From a virus (lineage: Duplodnaviria; Heunggongvirae; Uroviricota; Caudoviricetes), in IMG/VR virus record IMGVR_UViG_2859799533_000007: a stretch of 23,282 nucleotides of DNA; one strand, written 5' to 3'. Below are positions 3,152-23,282 of the stretch, in pieces (the first letter of the stretch is position 1; each line of letters opens with the position of its first letter). A model generated the notes under the pieces. That model worked only from the letters and a program-made list of their open reading frames with translations. It had not been told where the DNA came from and did no database searches. Position numbers and translations under genes: made by a program.

Positions 3152-3751
3152 TCAGAAACGGTATCCGATACCAACAATAAATGCATCCGTTCGCCAGTCG
3201 CCACTACCGGAACCTTCATAAGCAAGGTCAACGGCCACGGATTCGGTCGGGTTAAACTGCACGCCAGCCCCCCACGCCAGAGAGGTATTGCTGTGGCGAC
3301 CGTCATCACTTCCGGTCAGCACGTCGTGCGTTTTCCCCTTGTTGTCAGTTACGCGGAGATAATCCCCGGAGAAAGTCGACACACGGCTGTAAGCCACACC
3401 CGCCATCGCATACGCGCTGAACCATTCATTCACGCGTACAGACGGCCCCGCCATCACGCTGAACCAGCGGTTACGCACGGAATCTTCATGCCAGCGGGTA
3501 TCGCTGTAGCGCGTTTTTTGCTCATCCTCAGCATTGGCATAACTGAAGGACGTAATCAGCCCCAGCGCGTCCGTAAACTCATAACGGTATTTCACGTTAA
3601 TCCCGTTCAGATCATCACTACCGGGAACGTTCGTCGAGGCATGGAGATACCCCGCGCTCAGCGTGGACTGATGTTCTGCTGCACTCGCTGGCGTAGCAGC
3701 GGCGACCTGCCAGACTACTGCGGACAAAATAACAGCACATAATTTACGCAT
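3152..3751 (-). CDS. lom: Lom-like outer membrane beta-barrel protein (Ail/Lom/PagC family); a lambda moron
   Basis: 199-aa ORF with a signal peptide (MRKLCAVILSAVVWQVAAATPASA), alternating beta-strand pattern and C-terminal …IVGIGYRF; same position as lom in lambda, between J and stf. Confidence 0.88.
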   Translation of the reverse strand: MRKLCAVILSAVVWQVAAATPASAAEHQSTLSAGYLHASTNVPGSDDLNGINVKYRYEFTDALGLITSFSYANAEDEQKTRYSDTRWHEDSVRNRWFSVMAGPSVRVNEWFSAYAMAGVAYSRVSTFSGDYLRVTDNKGKTHDVLTGSDDGRHSNTSLAWGAGVQFNPTESVAVDLAYEGSGSGDWRTDAFIVGIGYRF

Positions 3752-3775
3752 AATTACCTCTCGCTTTTCTGCAAT

Positions 3776-3799
3776 AAAAAAGGCGCCATTTCTGGCGCC
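3776..3799 (-). terminator. Intrinsic terminator after J
   Basis: Minus strand GGCGCCA-GAAA-UGGCGCC (7-bp GC stem, 4-nt loop) followed by U6. Confidence 0.65.
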
Positions 3800-3818
3800 C
3801 GTATCTGGGTTATAAAAT

Positions 3819-6800
3819 TCAGCTAATCGTGATGCCTGCAGTGGCTTTCTTCATCACCACAACCAGCAAATCGCTGATACTTGCTGTGGGATACCAGTTA
3901 TTTACCAGCCATGCTGACACCGAAAACTCCAGTGTCATGTGACCGTGACCGGCAGGCATATCAATAACACCACTGTAAATCAGCGTATTATCCAGCGCGG
4001 TACGGTTATAAATTTCAGCACCGTTTTTCCGCACTATCAGACGGCATGAGGAGTAAATATCAGTATGCTCTTTCTCATGTTTAGCGCCGCTGAATGCCAC
4101 CGCCGGAATAACAATCTGCCGGTCAAACGGCTGATCGTCATAAACCCTGACGGTAATGGTTCCTGATGGCCACCGCTCTGGTGCACGGGAGTCCCGGGGG
4201 AAAGCTTTGCCCACTGTTTTAACGAGATCGCCTTCAATCTGGTTCGCGGACAATTTTCCCAGAACCCGACAGTTCTCGTTAATAGTGACGTTGTTGAGCG
4301 TCCCGGAGTTCGCATTCACGTTACCGCTGATATCGGCATTTTTCGCCGTCAGCCGCCCGTCCGGTGTCAGGGAAAATGCCGGAGGATTACCGCCGCTGGT
4401 AATGGTGGGAGCCGTCAGATATTTCAGGAACACTTCATTCATAAATATCTGATCGCCCTGACCAACAAACATCGGCTTTGTGTTGCCATTCGCAGGATTA
4501 ATCATCGCAATCCTGTCTGCCGCCAGCAGCACCTGACTCTGCATTCCTGCTGGCGTATTCTCAATACCGGCACCGATACCCGCAATATAAAGGCGTCCGT
4601 CCTGCATCTGCTGCAGTTTCACGGCCCACATGCTGTTCAGGTTATTATTTGTATCAACCTGAACTTTCTGTATCTGCTGGATTGCCGCACTCTGATTTTC
4701 CAGTTTTTTATTGACGGTCTGCGTGATTTCATTGCTGACATTCGTAATGGACGTCCTGATTTCAGCCAGGTCCGGCGCAAGCTGACCGTTATCAATCTGC
4801 GTCCACAGCTCCTGGGCCAGATGTGTTTTCCCGATTTCTCCTTTGAAAAAATCCAGGTAACCTTCCACATCATCGCTCGCCCGACCGACAGCCTCCACGA
4901 ATGCCGATTTGCCAACAGTATTCACACTGCGGATATAAAAATAATAATCATGGCCCGGTTTGATATTGATACTGGCAGCTATCCAGTACAGCGCCGAGCC
5001 AAGATAGCGGGCTGCGGTTTCAACCTGCCTGATATCCGCAATCCGCTTTTCCGAGAACCAGAACTCAAACTGTACCGTCGGGTCATAAACGGCAAGATGT
5101 GGCGTTGCGGTTATCTGAAAATAGCCCGGCGTCAGCTCAATCCGCGACGGTGCTGCCGGTGCGGCAATCCGGAAGGTGGTGGTGGCCGGTTCGCCCTGCT
5201 GGCCATAACTGTTAATTGCCCTGACTGTCAGGGTGTATTCCCCGAGCGGCAGACCACTGAAACGATGCTCTGTATCCGCAGTGATAGCGGTGGTCACCAG
5301 ACGGCTGTCTTCTCCGCTTCCGCTGGTCAGTCGCAGACTGAAGCGCACCCCCTTCACCACCCGCGGCGTGTCCCATTTCGCCTGTGCCAGATACTGGCCG
5401 TCAGCTGCGCTCACCTCCACCGTCAGGTGCTGCACTGCCGGTGGGATGACGCTGTTCAGGGAGCCTGACTGCGGCTCAAAGCGGGCACCGTTATCCACGA
5501 TGGCTTCTTTTTCCGGTACGTGCTGCACCGCCGTGATGGCAAAGGTGCCGTCCGTGTTTTCCCGGACGGAGACACAGCGGAACAGGCGACGGCGCAGTGA
5601 CGGCAGGGAGAGTCCCCACACCCCGTATGTCTCCACACCATCAGGCAGGGTACTGACCTGTATCCGGTCCGGCGCGGGGTGTGCGGTGATGTCCACACTC
5701 ACCGGCTTACCGCTGCCGTTAATCAGGTTCACCGCCGATGTACCTGTCTCCGGCAGGGTAACCTCACGGTCCAGCGTCAGGGTGCGGGTGGCAGCATCAA
5801 TGGACAGGACACGTCCGCCGGTCAGGGTCCCGGCATAGTCATTATCACAGATTTCAATAATGTCACCGGGTGTGTGCCGCAGCCCCTGAGACCCGAGCGT
5901 GAAGTCCACCGTCTGCGTTTCCAGCAGTTCGGTCTTTATCACCCACAGTCCGGCACGGTGGGCCTGACCGCGGCTGGTACAGCCGAACGCGTCCATCTTC
6001 AGCAGATTGCGCCCGTAGCGCAGTATGGCTTCCGGGTCTTCCACCAGTTCCGTGGAGGTCTGCCAGCCGTTCTGCGGGTCGGTGTAATTCACCTCCACCG
6101 CCGTGTGCCGGTCCTTCAGGGCACTGAAGCTGTAGCGGAACCCCACGCCGTTATCATCCACCACCACATCGCTGTTGGTGTACGGCCACACCACATCCGA
6201 CAGGCGGTCCTGAACAAACGTCAGCATCTGGCCGTTCCATACCGGCATACAGCGCATCGCCGAGCAGAAATCACTGAGAACATCCCACGCCTTACGCTGT
6301 TGTGCCAGGTACGCATTGAAGGTCATCCGCGGCTCGGTGCCCCCGAAGCCATCCGGCACCATCTGGTCGCAGTACTGCCCGATGGCATACAGCGCCCACT
6401 TGTCCACATCCGCCGCCCCCAGACGTTTTCCCATGCCGTAGCGCGGGTGAGTCAGCATGTCCCACAGACACCAGGCCGGATTGTTGCTGTATGCCGGTTT
6501 CAGACTGCCGTCCCAGATACCACTGTACGTGCGTTTTTCCGGGTCATAGTTTGACGGCACCTGGATGATGCGACCGCGGATATGGTAGTTCACCGTCATC
6601 TGCTGGCCGCCGAACTGCTCCGCATCCACCTGCAGCCCCACAATGGCCGTGTTCGGGTAGCACTGTTTCACATCGATGATTTCGGTGTATGACGACCACA
6701 GCGTCTTATTCTGCAGCTGGTCCGTGGTGCTGTCCGCCGTCTCCCTGACCATCCGGATGTTAAAGGGCCGGGGAGGCAGATTATCCAGAATCACCGAGGC

Positions 6801-7292
6801 CAGGAACTGTGAGGTGGTCTTGCCGTTAATGGTGACGTCCTTTTCCGTCACCCAGCGGCCATTACGCTGTAACTGAATCAGAATCCGGACAGAGGAAGGA
6901 TTACGGTCGCCCTTTGACGTGGTCTGCACCAGTGACTGCACCCCGAAGGTAACCCGCAGGCGGTCAATGTTCGCGGACGTAATGGTGCGCGTCACCGGTT
7001 TTGCCTTCGTCACTTCCACGCCCAGTCCGGTTTCAGCTCCGGAGGACTCAAAGCCTTCCGGTGGTGTCTGCTCCTGCTCCCCGGCGCGCCAGACCGCCGT
7101 CACACCGTGTATCACGGGATTGCCGTCCGTGTCCGTCAGTGGGGTTTTGTTCACCAGAATACTCTGCAGTCCCTTCACCGGACCTTCTATCGGTCCCTCA
7201 CCAATCGCATCAATCACACTCATCATCTGCGTGGATTTGAGATTATCCTTCGCCTCACGAGGCGTGTGTGCCTTACCGCCACCTTTTCCCAT
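3819..7292 (-). CDS. J: Tail tip / host specificity protein J (central tail fibre)
   Basis: Long similarity to lambda J from [22 protein letters not shown]… onward. Start placed at the ATG at 7292, preceded by GGGGAAGG; the ORF-track extension to 7505 is a non-coding upstream read-through. About 1157 aa. Confidence 0.9.
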
Positions 7293-7392
7293 ACAGCCTT
7301 CCCCTGAATAAATTAACCGCCACTTGCCATTCCGTACAGAAGTCGGATATCCTTCGCCTGAAAAGCATGAAACACATTTCTGCCATGCTAAA

Positions 7393-7428
7393 GAAAACCC
7401 CGGTATCAGCAGATACCGGGGTTTTCTT
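7393..7428. terminator. Perfect 14-bp-stem hairpin flanked by A- and T-runs (bidirectional terminator-like)
   Basis: AAAGAAAACCCCGGTATC-AGCA-GATACCGGGGTTTTCTTT, located in the enlarged I-J intergenic region. Confidence 0.7.
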
Positions 7429-7496
7429 TCATGCCCACCGATAATCCTGTTGGTTAAAACCGGTAATGGCATAAAAATTCTGAATATCTTCACATT

Positions 7497-7524
7497 TTCA
7501 CACACTGACTGTGGCGCTTATAAT
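7497..7524 (+). promoter_or_regulatory. Sigma70-like promoter (TTCACA, 16-bp spacer, TATAAT), antisense to the tail operon
   Basis: -35 at 7497-7502 (5/6 to TTGACA) and a perfect -10 at 7519-7524, in an AT-rich intergenic insert. Confidence 0.5.
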
Positions 7525-7530
7525 TTCGCT

Positions 7531-7628
7531 GCGTTAGTGTTTTTTTGCCCGAGTAACAAAAACAACTCCTTCACATTGATCTTCATTTGTCTGTCCCCGC
7601 AGCTCCGCGATCACTGCGGGATTTTTTT
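7531..7628 (+). ncRNA. Candidate ~100-nt small RNA (promoter to terminator, no convincing ORF)
   Basis: Bounded by the promoter at 7497-7524 and a plus-strand terminator (stem CCCGCAG/CTGCGGG at 7596-7620, then T7 at 7622-7628). No ATG-initiated ORF inside. Prediction only. Confidence 0.35.
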
Positions 7629-7633
7629 ATGTT

Positions 7634-8305
7634 TTATCCCTGTCGCCCGATAACCACGACCTTTCCGCCCCCGCCTTCATCACGGGTGCTGATGTCCTGG
7701 GATATACGGCGGGAGCCAACCAGCATTTCCCCGTAAGGCACCGGCATCGGGTTCCCCTGGGCAATCATGTTATCCAGCGAGGAAAAGTACGTGTTCTGTC
7801 TGCCGTTATCCGTTGCGCGGTAATCCGGTGTTTTTGCCTTCGGGGCCAGCATCTGGGCCACACCGCCCAGAATCATGCTGGCTCCAAGTGAAAACAGCAT
7901 CGTGGTGGCAGAAAAACCACCGGCTGCCAGGGCTGAACCCCATAACGCCATTGATGCCCCGGCAGTGAAGAAAGAGCCCACGATGGCTGCCGCCCCCAAC
8001 ACAATCTGCAGTCCACCCTTTCCGGCCCCGGCCAGTCGCGGCACAATGTGGATGACCGTTCCCTCACCCAGCTGTTCGTGAAGACGGGCATACACCGCCT
8101 CCGGTGCCGTGTCATCACCGGCAATACGTATCTGGTACCAGCCTTCGTTCATCTGACGGCGAAAGCCCGGCATCTGCATCGACAGGGCGCGAATGGCTTC
8201 CGCTGCCGTGTTCACATACAGGCTGAGGCGGCGGCCAAATCGTTGCAAATCCCCGTGAAGGCAGATGGTGAAGCAGCTCACCGTTGCCGCAGTAAATGGT
8301 GGCAT
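7634..8305 (-). CDS. I: Tail assembly protein I
   Basis: …CLHGDLQRFGRRLSLYVNTAAEAIRALSMQMPGF…IHIVPRLAGAGKGG… resembles lambda I. Start chosen at the Met at 8305 (223 aa, as in lambda); the longer track ORF is read-through of the K overlap. Confidence 0.85.
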   Translation of the reverse strand: MPPFTAATVSCFTICLHGDLQRFGRRLSLYVNTAAEAIRALSMQMPGFRRQMNEGWYQIRIAGDDTAPEAVYARLHEQLGEGTVIHIVPRLAGAGKGGLQIVLGAAAIVGSFFTAGASMALWGSALAAGGFSATTMLFSLGASMILGGVAQMLAPKAKTPDYRATDNGRQNTYFSSLDNMIAQGNPMPVPYGEMLVGSRRISQDISTRDEGGGGKVVVIGRQG

Positions 8306-9573: not shown

Positions 9574-9902
9574 CAGTTCACCACCTGCTTAAACTCCGCG
9601 CTGAACTCAACGCGCAACATCCCGACCCGCGCAGACCACCCGGCACAGGTCACCTTTATCTGCCGGTATGCATAAGGCGGTGTCCACAGAAACGCCTTCC
9701 AGCCACCGTGCTCTGCCAGGAATTCCTCCAGATGCCGGGCTTCCTCCCGGGTCACGGAAAGCGTCACCCGGTATGTTTTCAGGTCAGCACTCAGCCCTGC
9801 CGCCATACGCTGCGAATAGCCGTCACCAAAACGCACTTCACGCACCGATGGCCGCGAGTTCACCTCCATATCCGGTTTCACTTTCCAGCGAAAGGTTTTC
9901 AT
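9573..9902 (-). CDS. M: Minor tail protein M
   Basis: 109-aa ORF MKTFRWKVKPDMEVNSRPSVREVRFGDGYSQR…, same length and position as lambda M. Confidence 0.9.
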   Translation of the reverse strand: MKTFRWKVKPDMEVNSRPSVREVRFGDGYSQRMAAGLSADLKTYRVTLSVTREEARHLEEFLAEHGGWKAFLWTPPYAYRQIKVTCAGWSARVGMLRVEFSAEFKQVVN

Positions 9903-12509
9903 CGCCCGCTCCCCGATAACAGACCGCCATCACGCAACTGCAGCCGGAGCTCATCCTGCGCACCTTTACGGGCCATCTCATACACCGCTTTCATCAGCTG
10001 CGGCCCTGCCTGCCCGTTGGGGCCGTCGTTCTGAATCACCACGTGATTGTTCTGATTAAAATTAATGCCTTCGGCCCGCCGCATCTGCGCCGGACTTCCG
10101 GCACCGCCGACATAACCACCTTCCGCATACCCGCGCATCAGACGATACAGGTTGCCGACACCAATCCGGCTGGTCGCCTCCTTCGTGAAGACAAACTCCC
10201 CGCGATGGACAATCCCCGCAGGCTCATATTTGCCGCCCGTCCCGTAAATCCTCCGGTCGCGAAATGGAAGTTCGCCGCCGCAGCCTGAATGGCCGTCCCC
10301 GTGGAAGCGGATGCGCCACCACCGAAAGCACCACCAATGGCGCTGCCGATACGCCCGACAATCCCCACCATCGCCTGCTTCAGAAAAATCTCTGTCAGCA
10401 TGGAGAGCACGGAACGGGTGAAACCACGCCAGTTCTGTTCGCTGCCGGTCAGCATCGCCGCCATATTCTGTGCAATACCGTCAAAGGTCTGCGTGGCCAC
10501 ACTTTTTACCTGCGAAAAACTGTCCGTCGCACTTTCCGCCCACTCGCCCCAGCCGGACTTCATCCCGGCCATCCAGCTTCCACGAAGCTGCTCCTCCGCA
10601 GACCAGGTGTTCTTCAGTGCAGATGTGGCCTTCGCCAGCGCAGCCGGATTATCACCGTACACCTCACGAAGGCGCTGCTCTTCCGACTCCCGCTGCGCCT
10701 GACGGTCGGTGAGTCCGCGGGCTTTTGCGCTGATTGCCGCCTGCTTCGCGCTCTGCTGCTGTTCAAACCGCGCCGCCTGCTGTGCCAGCTCATTCAGCCG
10801 CTTCTGGTGTTCAATCTTGTCTCCCAGCTCAGCCAGCTGGCGTTTGTACTCCAGCGTCTCTTTCTCATGAGCCAGCAGGGATTTTTCCTGCCAGGATAAC
10901 TGCCGTTTCGTGGCAGCCTCTTTCAGGACCGCATACTGACTTTCCGCCTTCCATAAATCACGGCGCTGCCGGCTGATTTTCTCATTCGCACCGCTGTGTT
11001 TTTCCAGCGTCCTGAGCTCAGCTTCAAGGGCAAGCAGAGCCTCTCTTGCCTGCTCCTCTTCCCTCTCCCCGGCAGAGCGCGTTTTCGGTGATGTATGCTT
11101 TTTACCTGTCAGCTCTTCAGCCAGACGGCTGACGGCTTCCTGCTGCCCAAGACCTTTGCTGACGCCTGTTGCACGCGAGCGGTTGATGTACCCCATTTCC
11201 CCCTGGCGTATACGCGCATCCCGTTCCGCAATGGATTTTCTCAGCGCCAGTTCATCGCGTTTTGTTTTCTCAATAAATACGCGGTTCTCTTCTGCCAGTT
11301 CACCAAACAACGCACCAACGCCGGGCACATTCTTTGTCGTTTCCCAGGCTGACTGAATAAATTCAGCCAGTGCCAGATCCCCTGCACAAGCAGCAGCTTC
11401 ACCTGTTCAACGGTTCCGGCCACCACGTCAGTGATCAGACTGAGTGCCCCCAGTGTATGATCACCTATCCATGCCCATGCGTCAGAAGTCCAGGTTTTAA
11501 CATCGTCCCAGATTTTTTCCACCGGCGTGGCCGCTTTATCAAGTTGCTCCAGACGTGCATTCATGACATCCGCAAACAGGGACATCGCCTCCGTCACCGC
11601 AGCCTGTTTACCTTTCGTGCGCTCAAGCTCATCAATATGGCGTAACTGGGAAACGCTCAGGAAGTTATACTGCTGATTCAGGGAGGCCAGCGCCTTCACC
11701 GGATCTGCTGCAATCCCTTCAAAGGCTTTTTCCACCTTCCCGGCATCGTCCCCCACCGTCTGCAGCCATCTCTGAGAGGTTTCCCCCATGATCCGTAGCT
11801 GCCCGGCGGTATATTTCCCGCTTTCTGCCAGACGGGCCAGATTTTCTGCCGCCTGTCTGATACCACCACCGGCTTCATCGCTGATCACCCCGGCCATTTT
11901 CCACAATTCTGCCGTTGTGGTGGCAGCCGCCCCTCCGGTCAGGATCAGTGAACGCAATAAGGCCCGGTCAGCCTGCTCTGCCTGCCAGGCGGCGGCAGCA
12001 AGCACGGCCAGTACGGCAACCCCGCCACCTGCCGCCACACGGACCACCGACATAAATCGTCCCAGCTCACCGGCATTCCGGGCATTTTCAGCCAGTGCAT
12101 TTGCCGTATCTGACAGCGACTCCTCTGATGATTCAGAGGCATCCCTGATCCCGAGAAGTTCCTCCTTCAGCAGGGTAAGCAGGCTGAGCGGTTCACCGAA
12201 TGAATCGCTGATCTGCCCCCCCTGCTGCAGCATGATAAGGAAGGGATTCTGACCACCGGCAAGCTGAGTGACAATATCCGTGAACTGTGCGGGCAGTGTG
12301 CGCATGGCAGCCTTATACTGTCCGACTCATATCCCGGCTTTTTGTGCAGCCAGCGCCTGTCGGCTCAGCCCCTGTTCAACAGTACTGGCGGTTTTTCTGG
12401 CATCCGCCTCCAGACTGGAAAAATGACGGCGTACCCGGGCCATCTGTTCATCAAACCGGGCCGCATCCAGACTCAAATCAATAACCAGATCACCCGCTGG
12501 CTGGGACAT
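9899..12509 (-). pseudogene. H: Tail tape measure protein H, disrupted by one in-frame stop and two frameshifts
   Basis: N-terminus MSQPAGDLVIDLSLDAARFDEQMARVRRHF… is H-like, then an in-frame TGA at 12327-12329. Reading continues in the same frame to ~11390, shifts frame near the C4 run 11389-11392, and shifts again at the C3 run 10241-10243 before the H-like C-terminus …QNNHVVIQNDGPNGQAGPQLMKAVYEMARKG…. Confidence 0.85.
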
Positions 12510-12903
12510 ATCTCACACCTCCGGAAATCCCCGCTGAAGCCATCATTAATGCAACATCATCCTCGCTGACATCCACCACATTCGCAGAAGGTGAAATATC
12601 GCGCCCTCCGTCCCCTCCGAACCGGACGCCTCCGGCAACTCCTGTCGCTTTCTGCATCAGCATTTCTTCCTCGTCCGGCATCTCCGTCTGCTCTTCCTCA
12701 CACGCTGGAGCAAGCAGACTGAAATCCGCCGGATGCATATCCGGATCGCCAAAAAACAGGCTGAGTACGGCGTACATCAGCCCGGAAAAATGAGCGTCCA
12801 GTTGGGTATCCTGAAAATAATGCGTGCAGTAAAAACGTCGCCAGTCGGCATATTCGGTGGATGTCATCCCGGCAAGCATGGCGCGCCAGTCGGGTCTCCC
12901 CAT
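12490..12903 (-). CDS. T: Tail assembly chaperone T domain (normally made only as the G-T frameshift fusion)
   Basis: …RPDWRAMLAGMTSTEYADWRRFY… followed by an acidic stretch and GGVRF/GGVRYV motifs; its stop lies 17 nt after the H start codon, a lambda-like overlap. The frame is open upstream to 12927. Confidence 0.75.
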   Translation of the reverse strand: MGRPDWRAMLAGMTSTEYADWRRFYCTHYFQDTQLDAHFSGLMYAVLSLFFGDPDMHPADFSLLAPACEEEQTEMPDEEEMLMQKATGVAGGVRFGGDGGRDISPSANVVDVSEDDVALMMASAGISGGVRYVPASG

Positions 12904-13321
12904 CTCTCGCGCCAGTTTCAGGACAAGTTACCGGCTCAGTCGCTTCTGCTTTCCCGGTTTGTTCAGGATCGGCATCGTGCCGGTTATCCAGCATACCTGA
13001 AAGATAAAGCACCCGGTTCGTTGCCTGATTCAGTGCATCAGCAGGCCATCCCAGCATCACTTCACGGCGGATCTGCTGCATCTCTGTCTCCGGAGAGGCC
13101 AGAGTGCCTTTGAGGGAATGGGTATGCCATAGCGACATCGCCACAAGCAGGGATGCCGTTTCCAGATATCGCTGGTTAATGTGCACGACATCATGCTTCG
13201 TTGTCTCCTGTTGTTCTGCGTCTGAAACAAACTTTATATAATCAAACCGCTGCAGCGCAGACAATTCGGAAAGCGTGACAGACACACCGTTATATTCAAA
13301 TTGTTCTGTTTTCAGAAACAT
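12698..13321 (-). CDS. G: Tail assembly chaperone G; N-terminal ~125 aa G-like, 3' extension probably spurious
   Basis: MFLKTEQFEYNGVSVTLSELSALQR… resembles lambda G. The ORF is 207 aa (lambda G is 140 aa); the part beyond the GGGAAAG heptamer is Arg/Cys-rich and looks like an out-of-frame reading of the T region. Confidence 0.6.
   Translation of the reverse strand: MFLKTEQFEYNGVSVTLSELSALQRFDYIKFVSDAEQQETTKHDVVHINQRYLETASLLVAMSLWHTHSLKGTLASPETEMQQIRREVMLGWPADALNQATNRVLYLSGMLDNRHDADPEQTGKAEATEPVTCPETGARDGETRLARHACRDDIHRICRLATFLLHALFSGYPTGRSFFRADVRRTQPVFWRSGYASGGFQSACSSV
12949..12955 (-). promoter_or_regulatory. GGGAAAG slippery heptamer (putative G-T -1 frameshift site)
   Basis: Plus-strand CTTTCCC at 12949-12955. 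In the frame that reads it as G GGA AAG a TAA follows 7 codons later (12928-12930), lambda-like, but that frame is neither the N-terminal G frame nor a -1 partner of the T frame. Confidence 0.5.
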
Positions 13322-13334
13322 GTATTACCTCCGT

Positions 13335-14087
13335 TTACCCTGCAGCGCCCGCTTCAGTAACGGTGACTTCAGCCACTGCGGCGAACTGACCATTTCCGCT
13401 CACCACAAGGATCTGCACCTTACCTGTCGCCACGCCGTTTACCGTAATTGTCATATCTTTCACACTAATGGTGGCTTTCGACGGATCGGCGGAAACCGCT
13501 CTGAACGTCTTGTCGGTTGCACTTTCCGGCTCAAAAGAAACCGTCAGGGTGGTTGTTTTCCCTTTTGCCACCGTACCGGATGTCGGCGTCACCTTAATCG
13601 CACTGACCGGCGTAATTTTGCTGCGTTCTTCCGCTACAGAAGGTTTACCCACGTTAGTGACTTTCACCGTGCGGGTGATCACTTCTTTCGCCGTCACGGC
13701 CTTACCGATACTGCTGACCCAGCCACGAAACACATCCACCGTGCCATTCGGAAAACGGATTTTATAGGCCCGGACATCGCCGCTTTCAAACCAGCCTATA
13801 AGCCCTTTCTGGCCTTCCTCTCCCGGTTTCCAGGCCAGCGTAAAACTGGTATCACCTGCAGATTTCTGCCCCTGCCCGGTCGCGTTCCAGTCCGCGTCTT
13901 CATCATCCAGGTAGTTATCATCGTAGGATTCTGCCGTCATCTCGCCCGGCGTCAGATCCTTCACCTTAGCCAGTCGCTGCCAGTCATCGTCTGACAACGG
14001 GTTTGCATAAGCATCACCCTTGCCGTTGTAAACCCACAGAGTGGTACCGGCACCTTTTACCGGCTCAAGGGGATTTGGTGTTGCCAT
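13335..14087 (-). CDS. V: Major tail protein V with C-terminal Ig-like domain
   Basis: 250-aa [67 protein letters not shown]…; Thr/Val-rich C-terminal beta domain. Confidence 0.9.
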
Positions 14088-18833: not shown

Positions 18834-19595
18834 GTGGTGTTGTCTCCTCTTCCGGCCTGCGACTCTCCGCTATCTGCTGCTGATACGCCTGCGCTATCCA
18901 CACCGGACGTGAGAGTCCGGCTTTTTCCCGCTCTGCAGATTCCCTGACCTGCTGGCAGAAAATGTCCTGATAATCCTCGCCCATCAGCGCCAGCTCTTTC
19001 TCATACGTGCTCAGTCCGGCCTCAATGCGCATCACTGATTCCTGAACCTCCTTGAGCCCGTCAATGGCCATTCTTCCGGCTCCAATCCACTCAGCCCGTG
19101 ACCAGGCTGATCGCGCCTGATAAAAATCAAACCGTGCCCGTGGCGGACGAATAATCCCCGAAGAAGTGCCTCTTCCAGCCAGCAGGAAAACATCTGCGTG
19201 GCCAGCCGGGACGCAATAAATTTTCGCCGCCCCATAAAATAGCGCCACGACTCATTGGCGGATGCGCGGGCACTTGAGTAACTGACCTTCGAGTAATCAC
19301 GGGACAACTGTTCGTAGGAAACGCCAAGACCGGCGGCGATATACCGCAGCAGCGCCTGTTCAAGCGCCGAAAATCCATTGTCTGAATCCTGCGCGGTCTG
19401 AAGTTTCAGATCATCACCGGGGAAAAGGTGCGGAATTTTGACACCGCCCAGCATCACGCTATTCGTGTCATACCAGGTGGAGAACTTATCCAGAATATTA
19501 ATAAGCGGATTATCCTTCTGCCCCTGCGGCGCACCGGCGATATATTCAAAGGCCTTTTCGGTATCAAGGTCACTTTCAATCGTCGCTGCATACAT
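18823..19595 (-). pseudogene. B: Portal protein B, 3' half only, with an internal frameshift
   Basis: Two frames carry portal-like sequence and join at the C4 run 19156-19159. Only ~257 codons are present (lambda B is 533 aa); upstream of 19595 the frame reads AT-rich non-coding sequence. Confidence 0.75.
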
Positions 19596-19783
19596 CGCCT
19601 TTATGAAAAGACAGGAAAAAATAAAATTTAAAAACAGTACATTACGAATGCTCAGACCTATCGTTTAAAGGAGTCGCAATACACACTGCAATACACGATT
19701 ATTTATAAGATGAGCGGCATCCGTCATAAAGCTGGTGGATGCTTTTTCTATGCATATATGCACAGTTTTAGTGGGCGTTAATG

Positions 19784-20803: not shown

Positions 20804-21622
20804 TTAAGCAGCCATCTGATGATATTTTTCCCTGAAGGCTGCCGGGGAGATATTCCCCAGACGAGAGTGACGACGCTGACGATTGTAGAAAATCTCAATG
20901 TATTCCCGTATTACTGAGATGGCTTCATCCCGGTTATTAAAACGATAGTGGCTCAGGCTCTCATTTTTCAGCGTTCCCCAGAAGCTTTCCATCGGAGCGT
21001 TGTCGTAACACTGACCTTTACGCGACATTGATGTTTTCAGACCAGACTGCTCCTGTATGACCCGGTAATCGTATGCGCAGTACTGTGAACCTCGATCAGA
21101 GTGGTGGATTAGCCCGGCAGGTGGGCGCTGGCTCCTGAGCGCCATAAACAGGGCTTTACCTGTCAGCTCTTTTGTCATGCGCTCTCCCATGGCGTAGCCG
21201 ACAATTTCGCACGTATAAACATCTTTGATGCCAGCGAGGTACAACCATCCCTCCTGTGTGGCAACATACGTCAGGTACGCCACCCAGACCTGATTTGGTG
21301 CTGTAGGAGCGAACGTCTGGTTCAGCAGATTTGGCGCAACTGGCAGATTGTGGTTCGGGTTCGTAGTCGCTCTGAACTTGCGTTTCTGCTTACAGCGTAG
21401 CCTTAGCTCCTTACGAAGACGTGCCAGTCGGTCACGACCAACGATGATGCCATTCTCTGCCAGCTCCGTCTGGAGCCGCCGGGTTCCATATGTTTCGCGA
21501 GTGCGGATATGTGCCACCTTAATCTCCAGTTTTAGCCGCTCATCACTTTGTTTTCTGTCTGAGGGTTCATGCTGTACCCAGTTGTAATAACCGCTCCTGG
21601 ATACACCAAATACCTGACACAT
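20804..21622 (-). CDS. IS3-family transposase OrfB (DDE domain)
   Basis: 272-aa ORF …HHSDRGSQYCAYDYRVIQEQSGLKTSMSRKGQCYDNAPMESFWGTLKNE…; the frame is open upstream toward the frameshift window. Confidence 0.9.
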   Translation of the reverse strand: MCQVFGVSRSGYYNWVQHEPSDRKQSDERLKLEIKVAHIRTRETYGTRRLQTELAENGIIVGRDRLARLRKELRLRCKQKRKFRATTNPNHNLPVAPNLLNQTFAPTAPNQVWVAYLTYVATQEGWLYLAGIKDVYTCEIVGYAMGERMTKELTGKALFMALRSQRPPAGLIHHSDRGSQYCAYDYRVIQEQSGLKTSMSRKGQCYDNAPMESFWGTLKNESLSHYRFNNRDEAISVIREYIEIFYNRQRRHSRLGNISPAAFREKYHQMAA

Positions 21623-21657
21623 CGCTTCAATGGGAAATTGTTGTCGCCATTGTTCGA

Positions 21658-21960
21658 TTAACGCGTATTTTTCAGCGACTCCTGTGCAAAATACGCTGTT
21701 GCTTTTTTTAATATATCTCGCTCAAGGCGAGCTTCATTTAACGCCTTACGCAGTTGCAGAATTTCAGATTCCAGTTCAGCCACCGTGCGGGAACCAGGAG
21801 TACCGAGCCCTTTTCTGGCGGCGGTAACCCATTGTCCTAAAGTGCCTTCAGGAAGGGATAATCGGGAAGCGCCTTCACTGATCGAAAGTTGATTTTCAAG
21901 AACCGTTCTGACAGCTTCGGCTTTGAACTCTTTAGAGTAACGTTGGTTTTTTCTGCTCAT
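21658..21960 (-). CDS. IS3-family transposase OrfA (helix-turn-helix plus leucine zipper)
   Basis: 100-aa ORF MSRKNQRYSKEFKAEAVRTVLENQLSISEGASRLSLPEGTLGQWV…; an A7G slippery run (plus-strand T7 at 21703-21709) sits near its 3' end. Confidence 0.9.
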   Translation of the reverse strand: MSRKNQRYSKEFKAEAVRTVLENQLSISEGASRLSLPEGTLGQWVTAARKGLGTPGSRTVAELESEILQLRKALNEARLERDILKKATAYFAQESLKNTR

Positions 21961-22115: not shown

Positions 22116-22385
22116 ATGTCAGAAATAAAATCGCTGGTCACTGCTGAGGCAGTGAAGGAAGTCCTGCGCTCTGAAGAAGTCCGGAGCGCACTGAAACAGC
22201 AACTTCGGCAGAACCTTGAGGCGCGTCTTGATGCAGAAGTGGATTCAATTCTGGATGAACTGCTGGGCGCACCGACTGTTCCGGAGCCGGAAGGCATTGC
22301 GGATGACAGTGCTGTTTCAGATGGCGTCGGGTCTCAGCCTGACGGTAGTGAAGGGCCTCAGCCTGACGGCGAAATGATGATGTAA
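22116..22385 (+). CDS. Hypothetical acidic protein (89 aa) upstream of the holin
   Basis: ATG at 22116 within the longer track ORF; MSEIKSLVTAEAVKEVLRSEEVRSALKQQLRQNLEARLD… with an acidic C-terminus; weak RBS. Confidence 0.45.
   Translation: MSEIKSLVTAEAVKEVLRSEEVRSALKQQLRQNLEARLDAEVDSILDELLGAPTVPEPEGIADDSAVSDGVGSQPDGSEGPQPDGEMMM

Positions 22386-22620: not shown

Positions 22621-23282
<662 letters not shown>

What the first reader, a model, noticed from the sequence alone, without database searches (positions are those of the whole stretch)
12698..13321. G-T chaperone region: slippery heptamer present, but the reading frames do not fit a simple -1 frameshift
The N-terminal G frame reads the heptamer as GGG AAA G, not the required G GGA AAG. 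The frame that does read G GGA AAG stops 7 codons later, as in lambda, but is the same frame as the T domain, separated from it by that TAA. T is therefore +1, not -1, relative to the G N-terminus, and G as written runs on for 207 codons. Restoring the lambda arrangement needs at least two frame-changing edits around the site. Either the chaperone pair is inactivated, the sequence has errors, or this phage uses a non-canonical recoding event.
Basis: partly seen in the sequence, partly recalled or inferred. Interest (0 to 1): 0.55.

Follow-up and report, generated by a model that had tools for sequence, protein, structure and literature searches.

The report
Deleted frameshift site in dead prophage
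The odd reading frames in this phage tail-chaperone gene pair come from one 31-base deletion that removed the real frameshift site in a decaying prophage remnant of Shigella boydii, so this is an ordinary pseudogene and not a new kind of recoding.

Summary
G (13321..12698, minus strand) reads GGGAAAG as GGG AAA G and runs 207 codons, and the T domain lies +1 to it. The interpretation rests on a wrong premise, because GGGAAAG is not this family's slip site. In intact relatives (99.5% identical E. coli prophages, Stx1 phages, VT1-Sakai) G is 140 codons. Its only in-phase X XXY YYZ heptamer is A AAA AAG at nt 399, the position of lambda's G GGA AAG, and T follows in the -1 frame. GGGAAAG at nt 367 is out of phase in those relatives too, is absent from VT1-Sakai, and occurs in the window at chance frequency. 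The window lacks exactly 31 nt (ATCAAAAAAGCATTCGAAGGCGAGCTGAACT; junction 12927|12926) holding that slip site and G's stop codon. It is not a sequencing error: the junction is identical in all ten fetched assemblies, including S. boydii CDC 3083-94. It is absent from 5,426 complete E. coli genomes and 50,697 phage records. The prophage is a remnant with no terminase genes, half a portal gene and adjacent IS elements. No +1 recoding signal was seen. Verdict: inactivated G/GT pair, ordinary.

The parts
12698..13321 (-). G-derived fusion ORF of 207 codons. Native G residues 1-132 are followed by 75 codons read from the third frame of the T region, which is neither G's original frame nor T's frame.
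   Evidence: Pfam PF06894 Phage_TAC_2 on the identical protein in L003. tblastn with lambda G residues 1-133 matches 13321..12923.
12949..12955 (-). GGGAAAG heptamer: a bystander. It is out of phase (GGG AAA G) in the G frame here and in intact relatives.
   Evidence: phase 0 at nt 367 in E2865 and 1720a-02; GGGAAAA in VT1-Sakai. (chance frequency). In the intact relative E2865 the -1 frame has a TGA five codons after it.
12926..12927 (-). Junction of the 31-nt gap. Relatives carry ATCAAAAAAGCATTCGAAGGCGAGCTGAACT between these two bases. That stretch holds the A AAA AAG slip site (G nt 399-405) and G's TGA stop.
   Evidence: Alignment A1. Unique placement with no flanking microhomology. Identical junction in L003-L012.
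12928..12930 (-). TAA in the +1 frame, just upstream of the junction. It closes the frame that reads G GGA AAG and separates it from the T domain.
12490..12927 (-). T-domain coding sequence, intact but stranded in the +1 frame relative to G. ORF lists and gene callers show it as a 137-aa ORF from the internal ATG at 12903.
   Evidence: PF06223 Phage_tail_T on the same ORF in sister strains. tblastn with lambda T residues 8-143 matches 12927..12508.
13335..14087 (-). Major tail protein V homologue, directly upstream of G.
   Evidence: 78% identity to lambda V.
9899..12509 (-). Tape measure gene H, directly downstream of T. In this strain it is broken by TCA>TGA at 12328 and by 1-nt deletions in G runs at 11383 and 10244. 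It is an intact 870 codons in sister strains.
18862..19628 (-). Portal gene fragment covering only lambda B residues 266-522. Nothing in the window matches nu1, A or W.
   Evidence: tblastn with all lambda morphogenesis proteins. (gene calls).
20804..21960 (-). IS3-family element (best matches annotated IS600/IS911 family), about 1.2 kb beyond the portal fragment, at the truncated head end of the prophage.

Best explanation
This is the G/T tail-assembly-chaperone cassette of a lambdoid prophage remnant in the Shigella boydii chromosome, and a 31-nt gap has inactivated it. In the functional ancestor, as in today's intact relatives, G was 140 codons long. Ribosomes slipped -1 at A AAA AAG (G nt 399-405, seven codons before G's stop), producing a G-T fusion alongside G alone. 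The gap removed that heptamer, the last eight G codons and G's stop codon. Because 31 = 3x10+1, the T domain moved from -1 to +1 relative to G, and G now reads 75 further codons of meaningless third-frame sequence. The GGGAAAG 32 nt upstream is a chance heptamer that was never in phase. No authentic G or GT can be made, which is of no consequence because the element cannot form phage. Shown here: the gap, the frames, the position of the slip site in relatives, the spread of the junction among assemblies, and the truncation of the prophage. Inferred: that A AAA AAG is the working slip site in the relatives (from position, phase and lambda homology, not from an experiment), and that it was one event rather than two.
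For: (1) Alignment with E. coli E2865 (99.5% identical) and VT1-Sakai shows a single 31-nt gap and three substitutions over 861 nt. (2) In all six intact relatives examined, G holds exactly one in-phase X XXY YYZ heptamer, seven codons before its stop. It is A AAA AAG at nt 399 in E2865, VT1-Sakai and 1720a-02, G GGA AAG at nt 399 in lambda, and G GGA AAG at nt 408 in PhiR12_2_star and Stx2a_PV06-98. Each is followed by a -1 ORF of 117-152 codons beginning (A/V)F(E/D)GEL(N/S)F(V/A)L(K/R)LAREMGR. (3) The window's G frame has no in-phase heptamer at all. (4) GGGAAAG at nt 367 is phase 0 in E2865 and 1720a-02, reads GGGAAAA in VT1-Sakai, and is followed by a -1-frame TGA. Its count in the window is at chance level. 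(5) The 31 nt have one possible placement, and re-inserting them recreates the relatives' sequence. (6) The junction is identical in ten assemblies (L003-L012), and nine of them are identical across the whole G/T region. They include S. boydii CDC 3083-94 (ACD07415.1), and the exact 207-aa protein is indexed in 142 blocks. (7) No junction-spanning single-piece match exists in 5,426 complete E. coli genomes or 50,697 phage records. (8) The prophage lacks nu1, A and W, its portal gene starts at residue 266, and IS elements lie beside it.
Against: Frameshifting at A AAA AAG in this G family was not shown experimentally in anything I read; it rests on phase, position and homology to lambda. All carriers of the gap are near-identical, so there is no sequence divergence with which to test for relaxed selection on the stranded T domain. 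The T domain and many tail genes (V, M, L, J, and H in sister strains) are still open, so decay is incomplete. A 30-nt deletion plus a separate 1-nt loss in the TTT run would give the same sequence as one 31-nt event.
Confidence: 0.93

Rival explanations
1. Sequencing or assembly error: the true genome has the canonical G/-1 T arrangement and the 31 nt were lost in the assembly.
For: This assembly does carry private 1-nt deletions in G homopolymer runs (19160, 18562, 11383, 10244) that are absent from four sister strains. That is the typical signature of long-read errors.
Against: The gap is 31 nt of complex sequence, not a homopolymer slip. The identical junction is present in all ten fetched assemblies and in one IMG/VR prophage call, and the exact fusion protein is indexed in 142 blocks of the collection, with sources that include NCBI genomes and Logan assemblies of sequencing runs.
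Confidence: 0.01
2. Non-canonical recoding: a programmed +1 (or -2) frameshift just after the junction joins G to T and keeps the chaperone pair working.
For: The T domain is intact and lies +1 to G. Its frame opens immediately after the TAA at 12930..12928, so a +1 shift within the next few codons would give a G-T fusion lacking about ten linker residues.
Against: Reading the G-frame codons after the junction (GTA ACT TGT CCT GAA ACT GGC GCG AGA), I see no known +1 signal: no stop or CCC/CUU-type P-site codon that re-pairs in +1, and no upstream Shine-Dalgarno-like stimulator (own knowledge of prfB-type sites). G itself would still lack its native C-terminus and stop codon. The arrangement is a recent derivative of a canonical -1 cassette, confined to one bacterial lineage, in an element without terminase genes or a complete portal gene, so nothing selects for tail assembly.
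Confidence: 0.02
3. The two parts are expressed separately: the 207-aa G fusion, and a free 137-aa T protein from the internal ATG at 12903. Together or apart they retain or have gained a function for the host.
For: Both ORFs are open and identical in nine of ten assemblies. Annotation pipelines call the 137-aa T ORF in intact relatives too.
Against: The separate T call is an annotation convention for a product that in lambda is described as the frameshift-derived GT fusion (PMC5009743). The 75-codon tail of the fusion comes from a frame that carries stop codons in lambda and VT1-Sakai, so it is not a conserved coding frame. Identity among carriers reflects recent common ancestry, not constraint.
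Confidence: 0.04

Closest known systems
Bacteriophage lambda gpG / gpGT tail assembly chaperones, made by programmed -1 ribosomal frameshifting at G GGA AAG (Levin, Hendrix & Casjens 1993; Xu, Hendrix & Duda 2004, 2013, 2014, as reviewed in PMC5009743)
   Same: Same gene order V-G-T-H. G is homologous to lambda G (45% identity over residues 1-133) and T to lambda T (69% over residues 8-143). The intact relatives of the window have a 140-codon G with the slip heptamer at exactly the same nucleotide (399) as lambda.
   Different: The window has no in-phase slip heptamer, no G stop codon at the usual place, and T in +1 instead of -1. Its family used A AAA AAG rather than G GGA AAG.
G/T cassette of Stx1-converting phages and VT1-Sakai, and the equivalent prophages of non-O157 STEC E. 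coli (e.g. strain E2865, WP_000479045.1 / WP_000533440.1)
   Same: 99.3-99.5% nucleotide identity to the Stx1a phages and E2865 (94% to VT1-Sakai). Identical G residues 1-132 apart from one substitution. The out-of-phase GGGAAAG at nt 367 is shared with E2865 and 1720a-02 but not with VT1-Sakai.
   Different: Those copies keep the 31 nt with A AAA AAG and G's TGA; the window does not.
Cryptic, IS-ridden prophage remnants of Shigella genomes
   Same: Truncated head module, IS3-family elements beside the portal fragment, and several frame-disrupting lesions.
   Different: Nothing notable. This is a typical example.

Membership tests
Lambda-type G/GT tail assembly chaperone pair with programmed -1 frameshift | G-domain homologue (Pfam PF06894 Phage_TAC_2) | tested here: met
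   PF06894 on the identical 207-aa product. tblastn with lambda G, E=2e-31.
Lambda-type G/GT tail assembly chaperone pair with programmed -1 frameshift | T-domain homologue (Pfam PF06223 Phage_tail_T) immediately downstream | tested here: met
   PF06223 on the 137-aa ORF in sister strains with identical sequence. tblastn with lambda T, E=2e-52.
Lambda-type G/GT tail assembly chaperone pair with programmed -1 frameshift | Location between the major tail protein gene and the tape measure gene | tested here: met
   V at 14087..13335 and the H start at 12509.
Lambda-type G/GT tail assembly chaperone pair with programmed -1 frameshift | In-phase X XXY YYZ slippery heptamer near the 3' end of G | tested here: not met
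   A scan of every codon of the G frame found none in the window, and exactly one in each of six intact relatives.
Lambda-type G/GT tail assembly chaperone pair with programmed -1 frameshift | T domain in the -1 frame, open across the slip site | tested here: not met
   T is in +1. The -1 frame is closed by several stops.
Lambda-type G/GT tail assembly chaperone pair with programmed -1 frameshift | G terminates a few codons after the slip site, so that G is the major product | tested here: not met
   G's TGA lay in the missing 31 nt. The ORF runs to 207 codons.
Lambda-type G/GT tail assembly chaperone pair with programmed -1 frameshift | Production of both G and a G-T fusion protein | not testable with these tools
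   Needs protein analysis or a frameshift reporter.
Programmed +1 frameshift sites (prfB type) | A shift-prone P-site codon followed by a slow or stop codon, with an upstream stimulator | tested here: not met
   Read by eye from codons 12932..12900. No formal scan tool was available.

The most novel reading that the evidence does not exclude
The stranded T domain is still joined to G at a low level by an unprogrammed or unrecognised +1/-2 shift just after the junction, or the 207-aa fusion has been co-opted by the host. In that case a Shigella lineage would be keeping a rewired chaperone cassette in use.
Probability: 0.02. Interest if true: 0.5.

Novelty: already known. Interest (0 to 1): 0.07.

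Why it matters
It matters mainly as a caution for annotation. In this widespread Stx-phage-like G family the slip site is A AAA AAG, and the nearby GGGAAAG is a decoy. A scan keyed to lambda's heptamer will misplace the site in intact phages, and in decayed ones it will suggest exotic recoding. For the biology it adds one more dated lesion, shared by the assemblies examined, to the record of prophage decay in Shigella boydii. It opens no new question about frameshifting.

Tried and rejected
1. I looked for the exact 34-nt junction in the species-representative genome collection and in metagenome contigs and found 0 hits in each. It was found only through the exact-protein index and one IMG/VR prophage call, which proved to be the same remnant at 99.86% identity.

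2. I looked for E. coli or phage records carrying the gap, using an 80-nt junction query. All top matches were two pieces spanning 111 nt, which means undeleted.

3. I tested whether short direct repeats explain the deletion. AAC...AAC flank 30 of the 31 nt, but the 31-nt gap has a single possible placement and therefore no microhomology. I could not tell one event from a 30+1 pair of events.

4. I searched the papers for the assembly accession CP026866 and found nothing.

5. I considered a conserved overlapping gene in the third frame of T, because that frame is open in E2865 as well. I rejected it because lambda and VT1-Sakai have stops there.

6. I did not fold the RNA or predict a protein structure. 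Neither bears on a lesion that the alignment explains.

Full report
**What is in the sequence.** The genes of this region lie on the minus strand. An ORF starts at ATG 13321 and runs 207 codons to 12698. Its first 132 residues are a homologue of lambda tail assembly chaperone G (tblastn E=2e-31; Pfam PF06894 on the identical protein).

- GGGAAAG lies at 12955..12949, at nt 367 of the ORF, and is read GGG AAA G in the G frame.
- The +1 frame reads it G GGA AAG and stops at TAA 12930..12928.
- The homologue of the lambda T domain (LVLKLAREMGRPDWRAMLAGM..., 69% identical to lambda T, PF06223) follows in that same +1 frame from 12927 to 12490.

The heptamer itself is not remarkable. There are four copies in the window on both strands against 3.6 expected, and half of the shuffles reach that number.

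**What the relatives show.** The 861-nt stretch matches prophages in more than 500 complete E. coli genomes and ten Stx1a-converting phages at 99.3-99.5% identity. It always does so in two pieces that span 892 nt of the record. Alignment with E. coli E2865 and with phage VT1-Sakai shows one gap. After ...GAGCCGGTAAC the relatives carry ATCAAAAAAGCATTCGAAGGCGAGCTGAACT (31 nt), which the window lacks. The junction lies between window positions 12927 and 12926. The gap has a single possible placement and no flanking microhomology.

**Where the real slip site is.** I scanned every codon of the G frame for in-phase X XXY YYZ heptamers in six intact relatives. Each has exactly one, seven codons before G's stop.

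| Relative | Heptamer | Position in G |
|---|---|---|
| E2865, VT1-Sakai, 1720a-02 | A AAA AAG | nt 399 (codon 133) |
| Lambda | G GGA AAG | nt 399 (codon 133) |
| PhiR12_2_star, Stx2a_PV06-98 | G GGA AAG | nt 408 |

In each case the -1 frame then runs 117-152 codons, beginning (A/V)F(E/D)GEL(N/S)F(V/A)L(K/R)LAREMGR, which is the start of lambda's T domain. G is 140 codons in lambda and in the window's own family.

GGGAAAG at nt 367 is also out of phase in E2865 and 1720a-02. It reads GGGAAAA in VT1-Sakai. In the intact relative E2865 it is followed five codons later by a TGA in the -1 frame. It cannot be a productive site in any of them.

The slip site of this G family is therefore A AAA AAG, and it lay inside the missing 31 nt together with G's last eight codons and its TGA. 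That this heptamer is where ribosomes actually slip is inferred from phase, position and homology. The lambda mechanism itself, and the need for the correct ratio of G to GT, are established knowledge (reviewed in PMC5009743).

**How the gap produces the observation.** Removing 31 nt (3x10+1) moves everything downstream by one frame.

- T, formerly -1, becomes +1 relative to G.
- G, having lost its stop, reads on through 75 codons of the third frame of the T region.
- That third frame happens to be open in E2865 too, but it has stops in lambda and VT1-Sakai, so it is not a conserved coding frame.
- The frame that reads G GGA AAG and then stops is simply the relatives' +1 frame, which ends at the TAA in CCGGTAAC.

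Restoring the 31 nt restores the canonical cassette. No second edit is needed.

**Real lesion or error.** The window is 100% identical to CP026866.1 (L003). The exact 207-aa protein is ACD07415.1 of Shigella boydii CDC 3083-94. It is indexed in 142 blocks of the assembly collection, with sources that include NCBI genomes and Logan assemblies of sequencing runs. All ten fetched assemblies have the identical junction at the same position, and nine are identical over the whole G/T region. They differ elsewhere, for example at about 92% identity in the J region of L009 and L011, so they are independent genomes. One IMG/VR prophage call carries the junction and is the same remnant.

No complete E. 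coli genome (5,426) and no phage record (50,697) has a junction-spanning match. The lesion is real, and it appears confined to one Shigella lineage.

**Context.** tblastn with all lambda morphogenesis proteins finds nothing for nu1, A or W, and the portal match begins at residue 266 of 533. IS3-family elements, with best matches annotated IS600/IS911, lie next to the portal fragment. In CDC 3083-94 a chromosomal TonB-dependent receptor gene follows. The element cannot package DNA, so nothing selects for tail assembly.

This particular assembly has additional private lesions relative to four sister strains:

- 1-nt deletions in G runs at 19160 (portal), 18562 (C), 11383 and 10244 (H);
- a TCA>TGA change at 12328 in H.

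The homopolymer pattern could reflect long-read errors or real slippage, and I cannot tell which.

**Rivals.**
- **Sequencing error.** This is excluded for the 31-nt gap by the evidence above.
- **Programmed +1 shift.** Such a shift would have to occur in the few codons after the TAA (GTA ACT TGT CCT GAA ACT GGC GCG AGA). I see no known +1 signal there. G would still lack its native end. The arrangement is a recent derivative of a canonical -1 cassette in a dead element. I give this 2%.
- **Separate expression.** Expression of the fusion and of a free T from the internal ATG at 12903 cannot be excluded, but nothing supports it (4%).

**Verdict.** This is an inactivated lambda-type G/GT cassette in a cryptic Shigella boydii prophage. 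One 31-nt gap removed the true A AAA AAG slip site, and the GGGAAAG that drew attention is a decoy. The finding is ordinary. Its only wider use is as a warning not to key frameshift-site annotation in this G family to lambda's heptamer.

Noticed in passing
window 20804-21960 (-), heptamer 21709-21703: An IS3-family element (orfA 21960..21658, 100 aa; orfB 21622..20804, 272 aa) carries an in-phase A AAA AAA heptamer near the end of orfA, with the -1 frame open into orfB. The window therefore holds an apparently intact site of the IS3 OrfAB frameshift type, just not in G/T.
   Followed up: partly
window 19160, 18562, 11383, 10244 and 12328: Compared with four sister strains, this assembly alone has 1-nt deletions in G homopolymer runs that break the portal fragment, the C protease gene and H (twice). 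It also has a TCA>TGA nonsense change in H. The homopolymer pattern could be long-read sequencing error or real slippage.
   Followed up: partly
window 18862-19628 and beyond to 20800: The head module is truncated. No nu1, A or W homologue is present anywhere in the window, and the portal match begins at lambda B residue 266, about 1.2 kb from the IS element.
   Followed up: yes
window 12698-12926 (-); L001 3430-3660: The third reading frame across the T region is open for about 75 codons in the window and also in the intact E2865 copy, but it has stops in lambda and VT1-Sakai. This is probably chance and not an overlapping gene.
   Followed up: partly
window 3192-8270 versus L009 and L011: The I-J-lom region is only about 92-93% identical between this strain and two sister strains, while the rest is above 99.5%. 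This points to recombinational replacement of the tail-tip module within the remnant.
   Followed up: no
L001 3863-6474 (E. coli E2865): In the otherwise intact closest E. coli relative, RefSeq flags the tape measure gene as a frameshifted pseudogene, so that prophage may be defective as well.
   Followed up: no
L017 (Escherichia phage 204576, CP025907.1) from position 320: The G ORF of this record stops after 76 codons, although the downstream sequence still holds the G GGA AAG region. This suggests a frameshift or a sequence error in that record.
   Followed up: no
window 22116-22385 (+) and 22629-23282 (-): A DUF826 ORF and a second transposase fragment (rve domain) lie beyond the IS element at the window's right end. 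I did not examine them.
   Followed up: no
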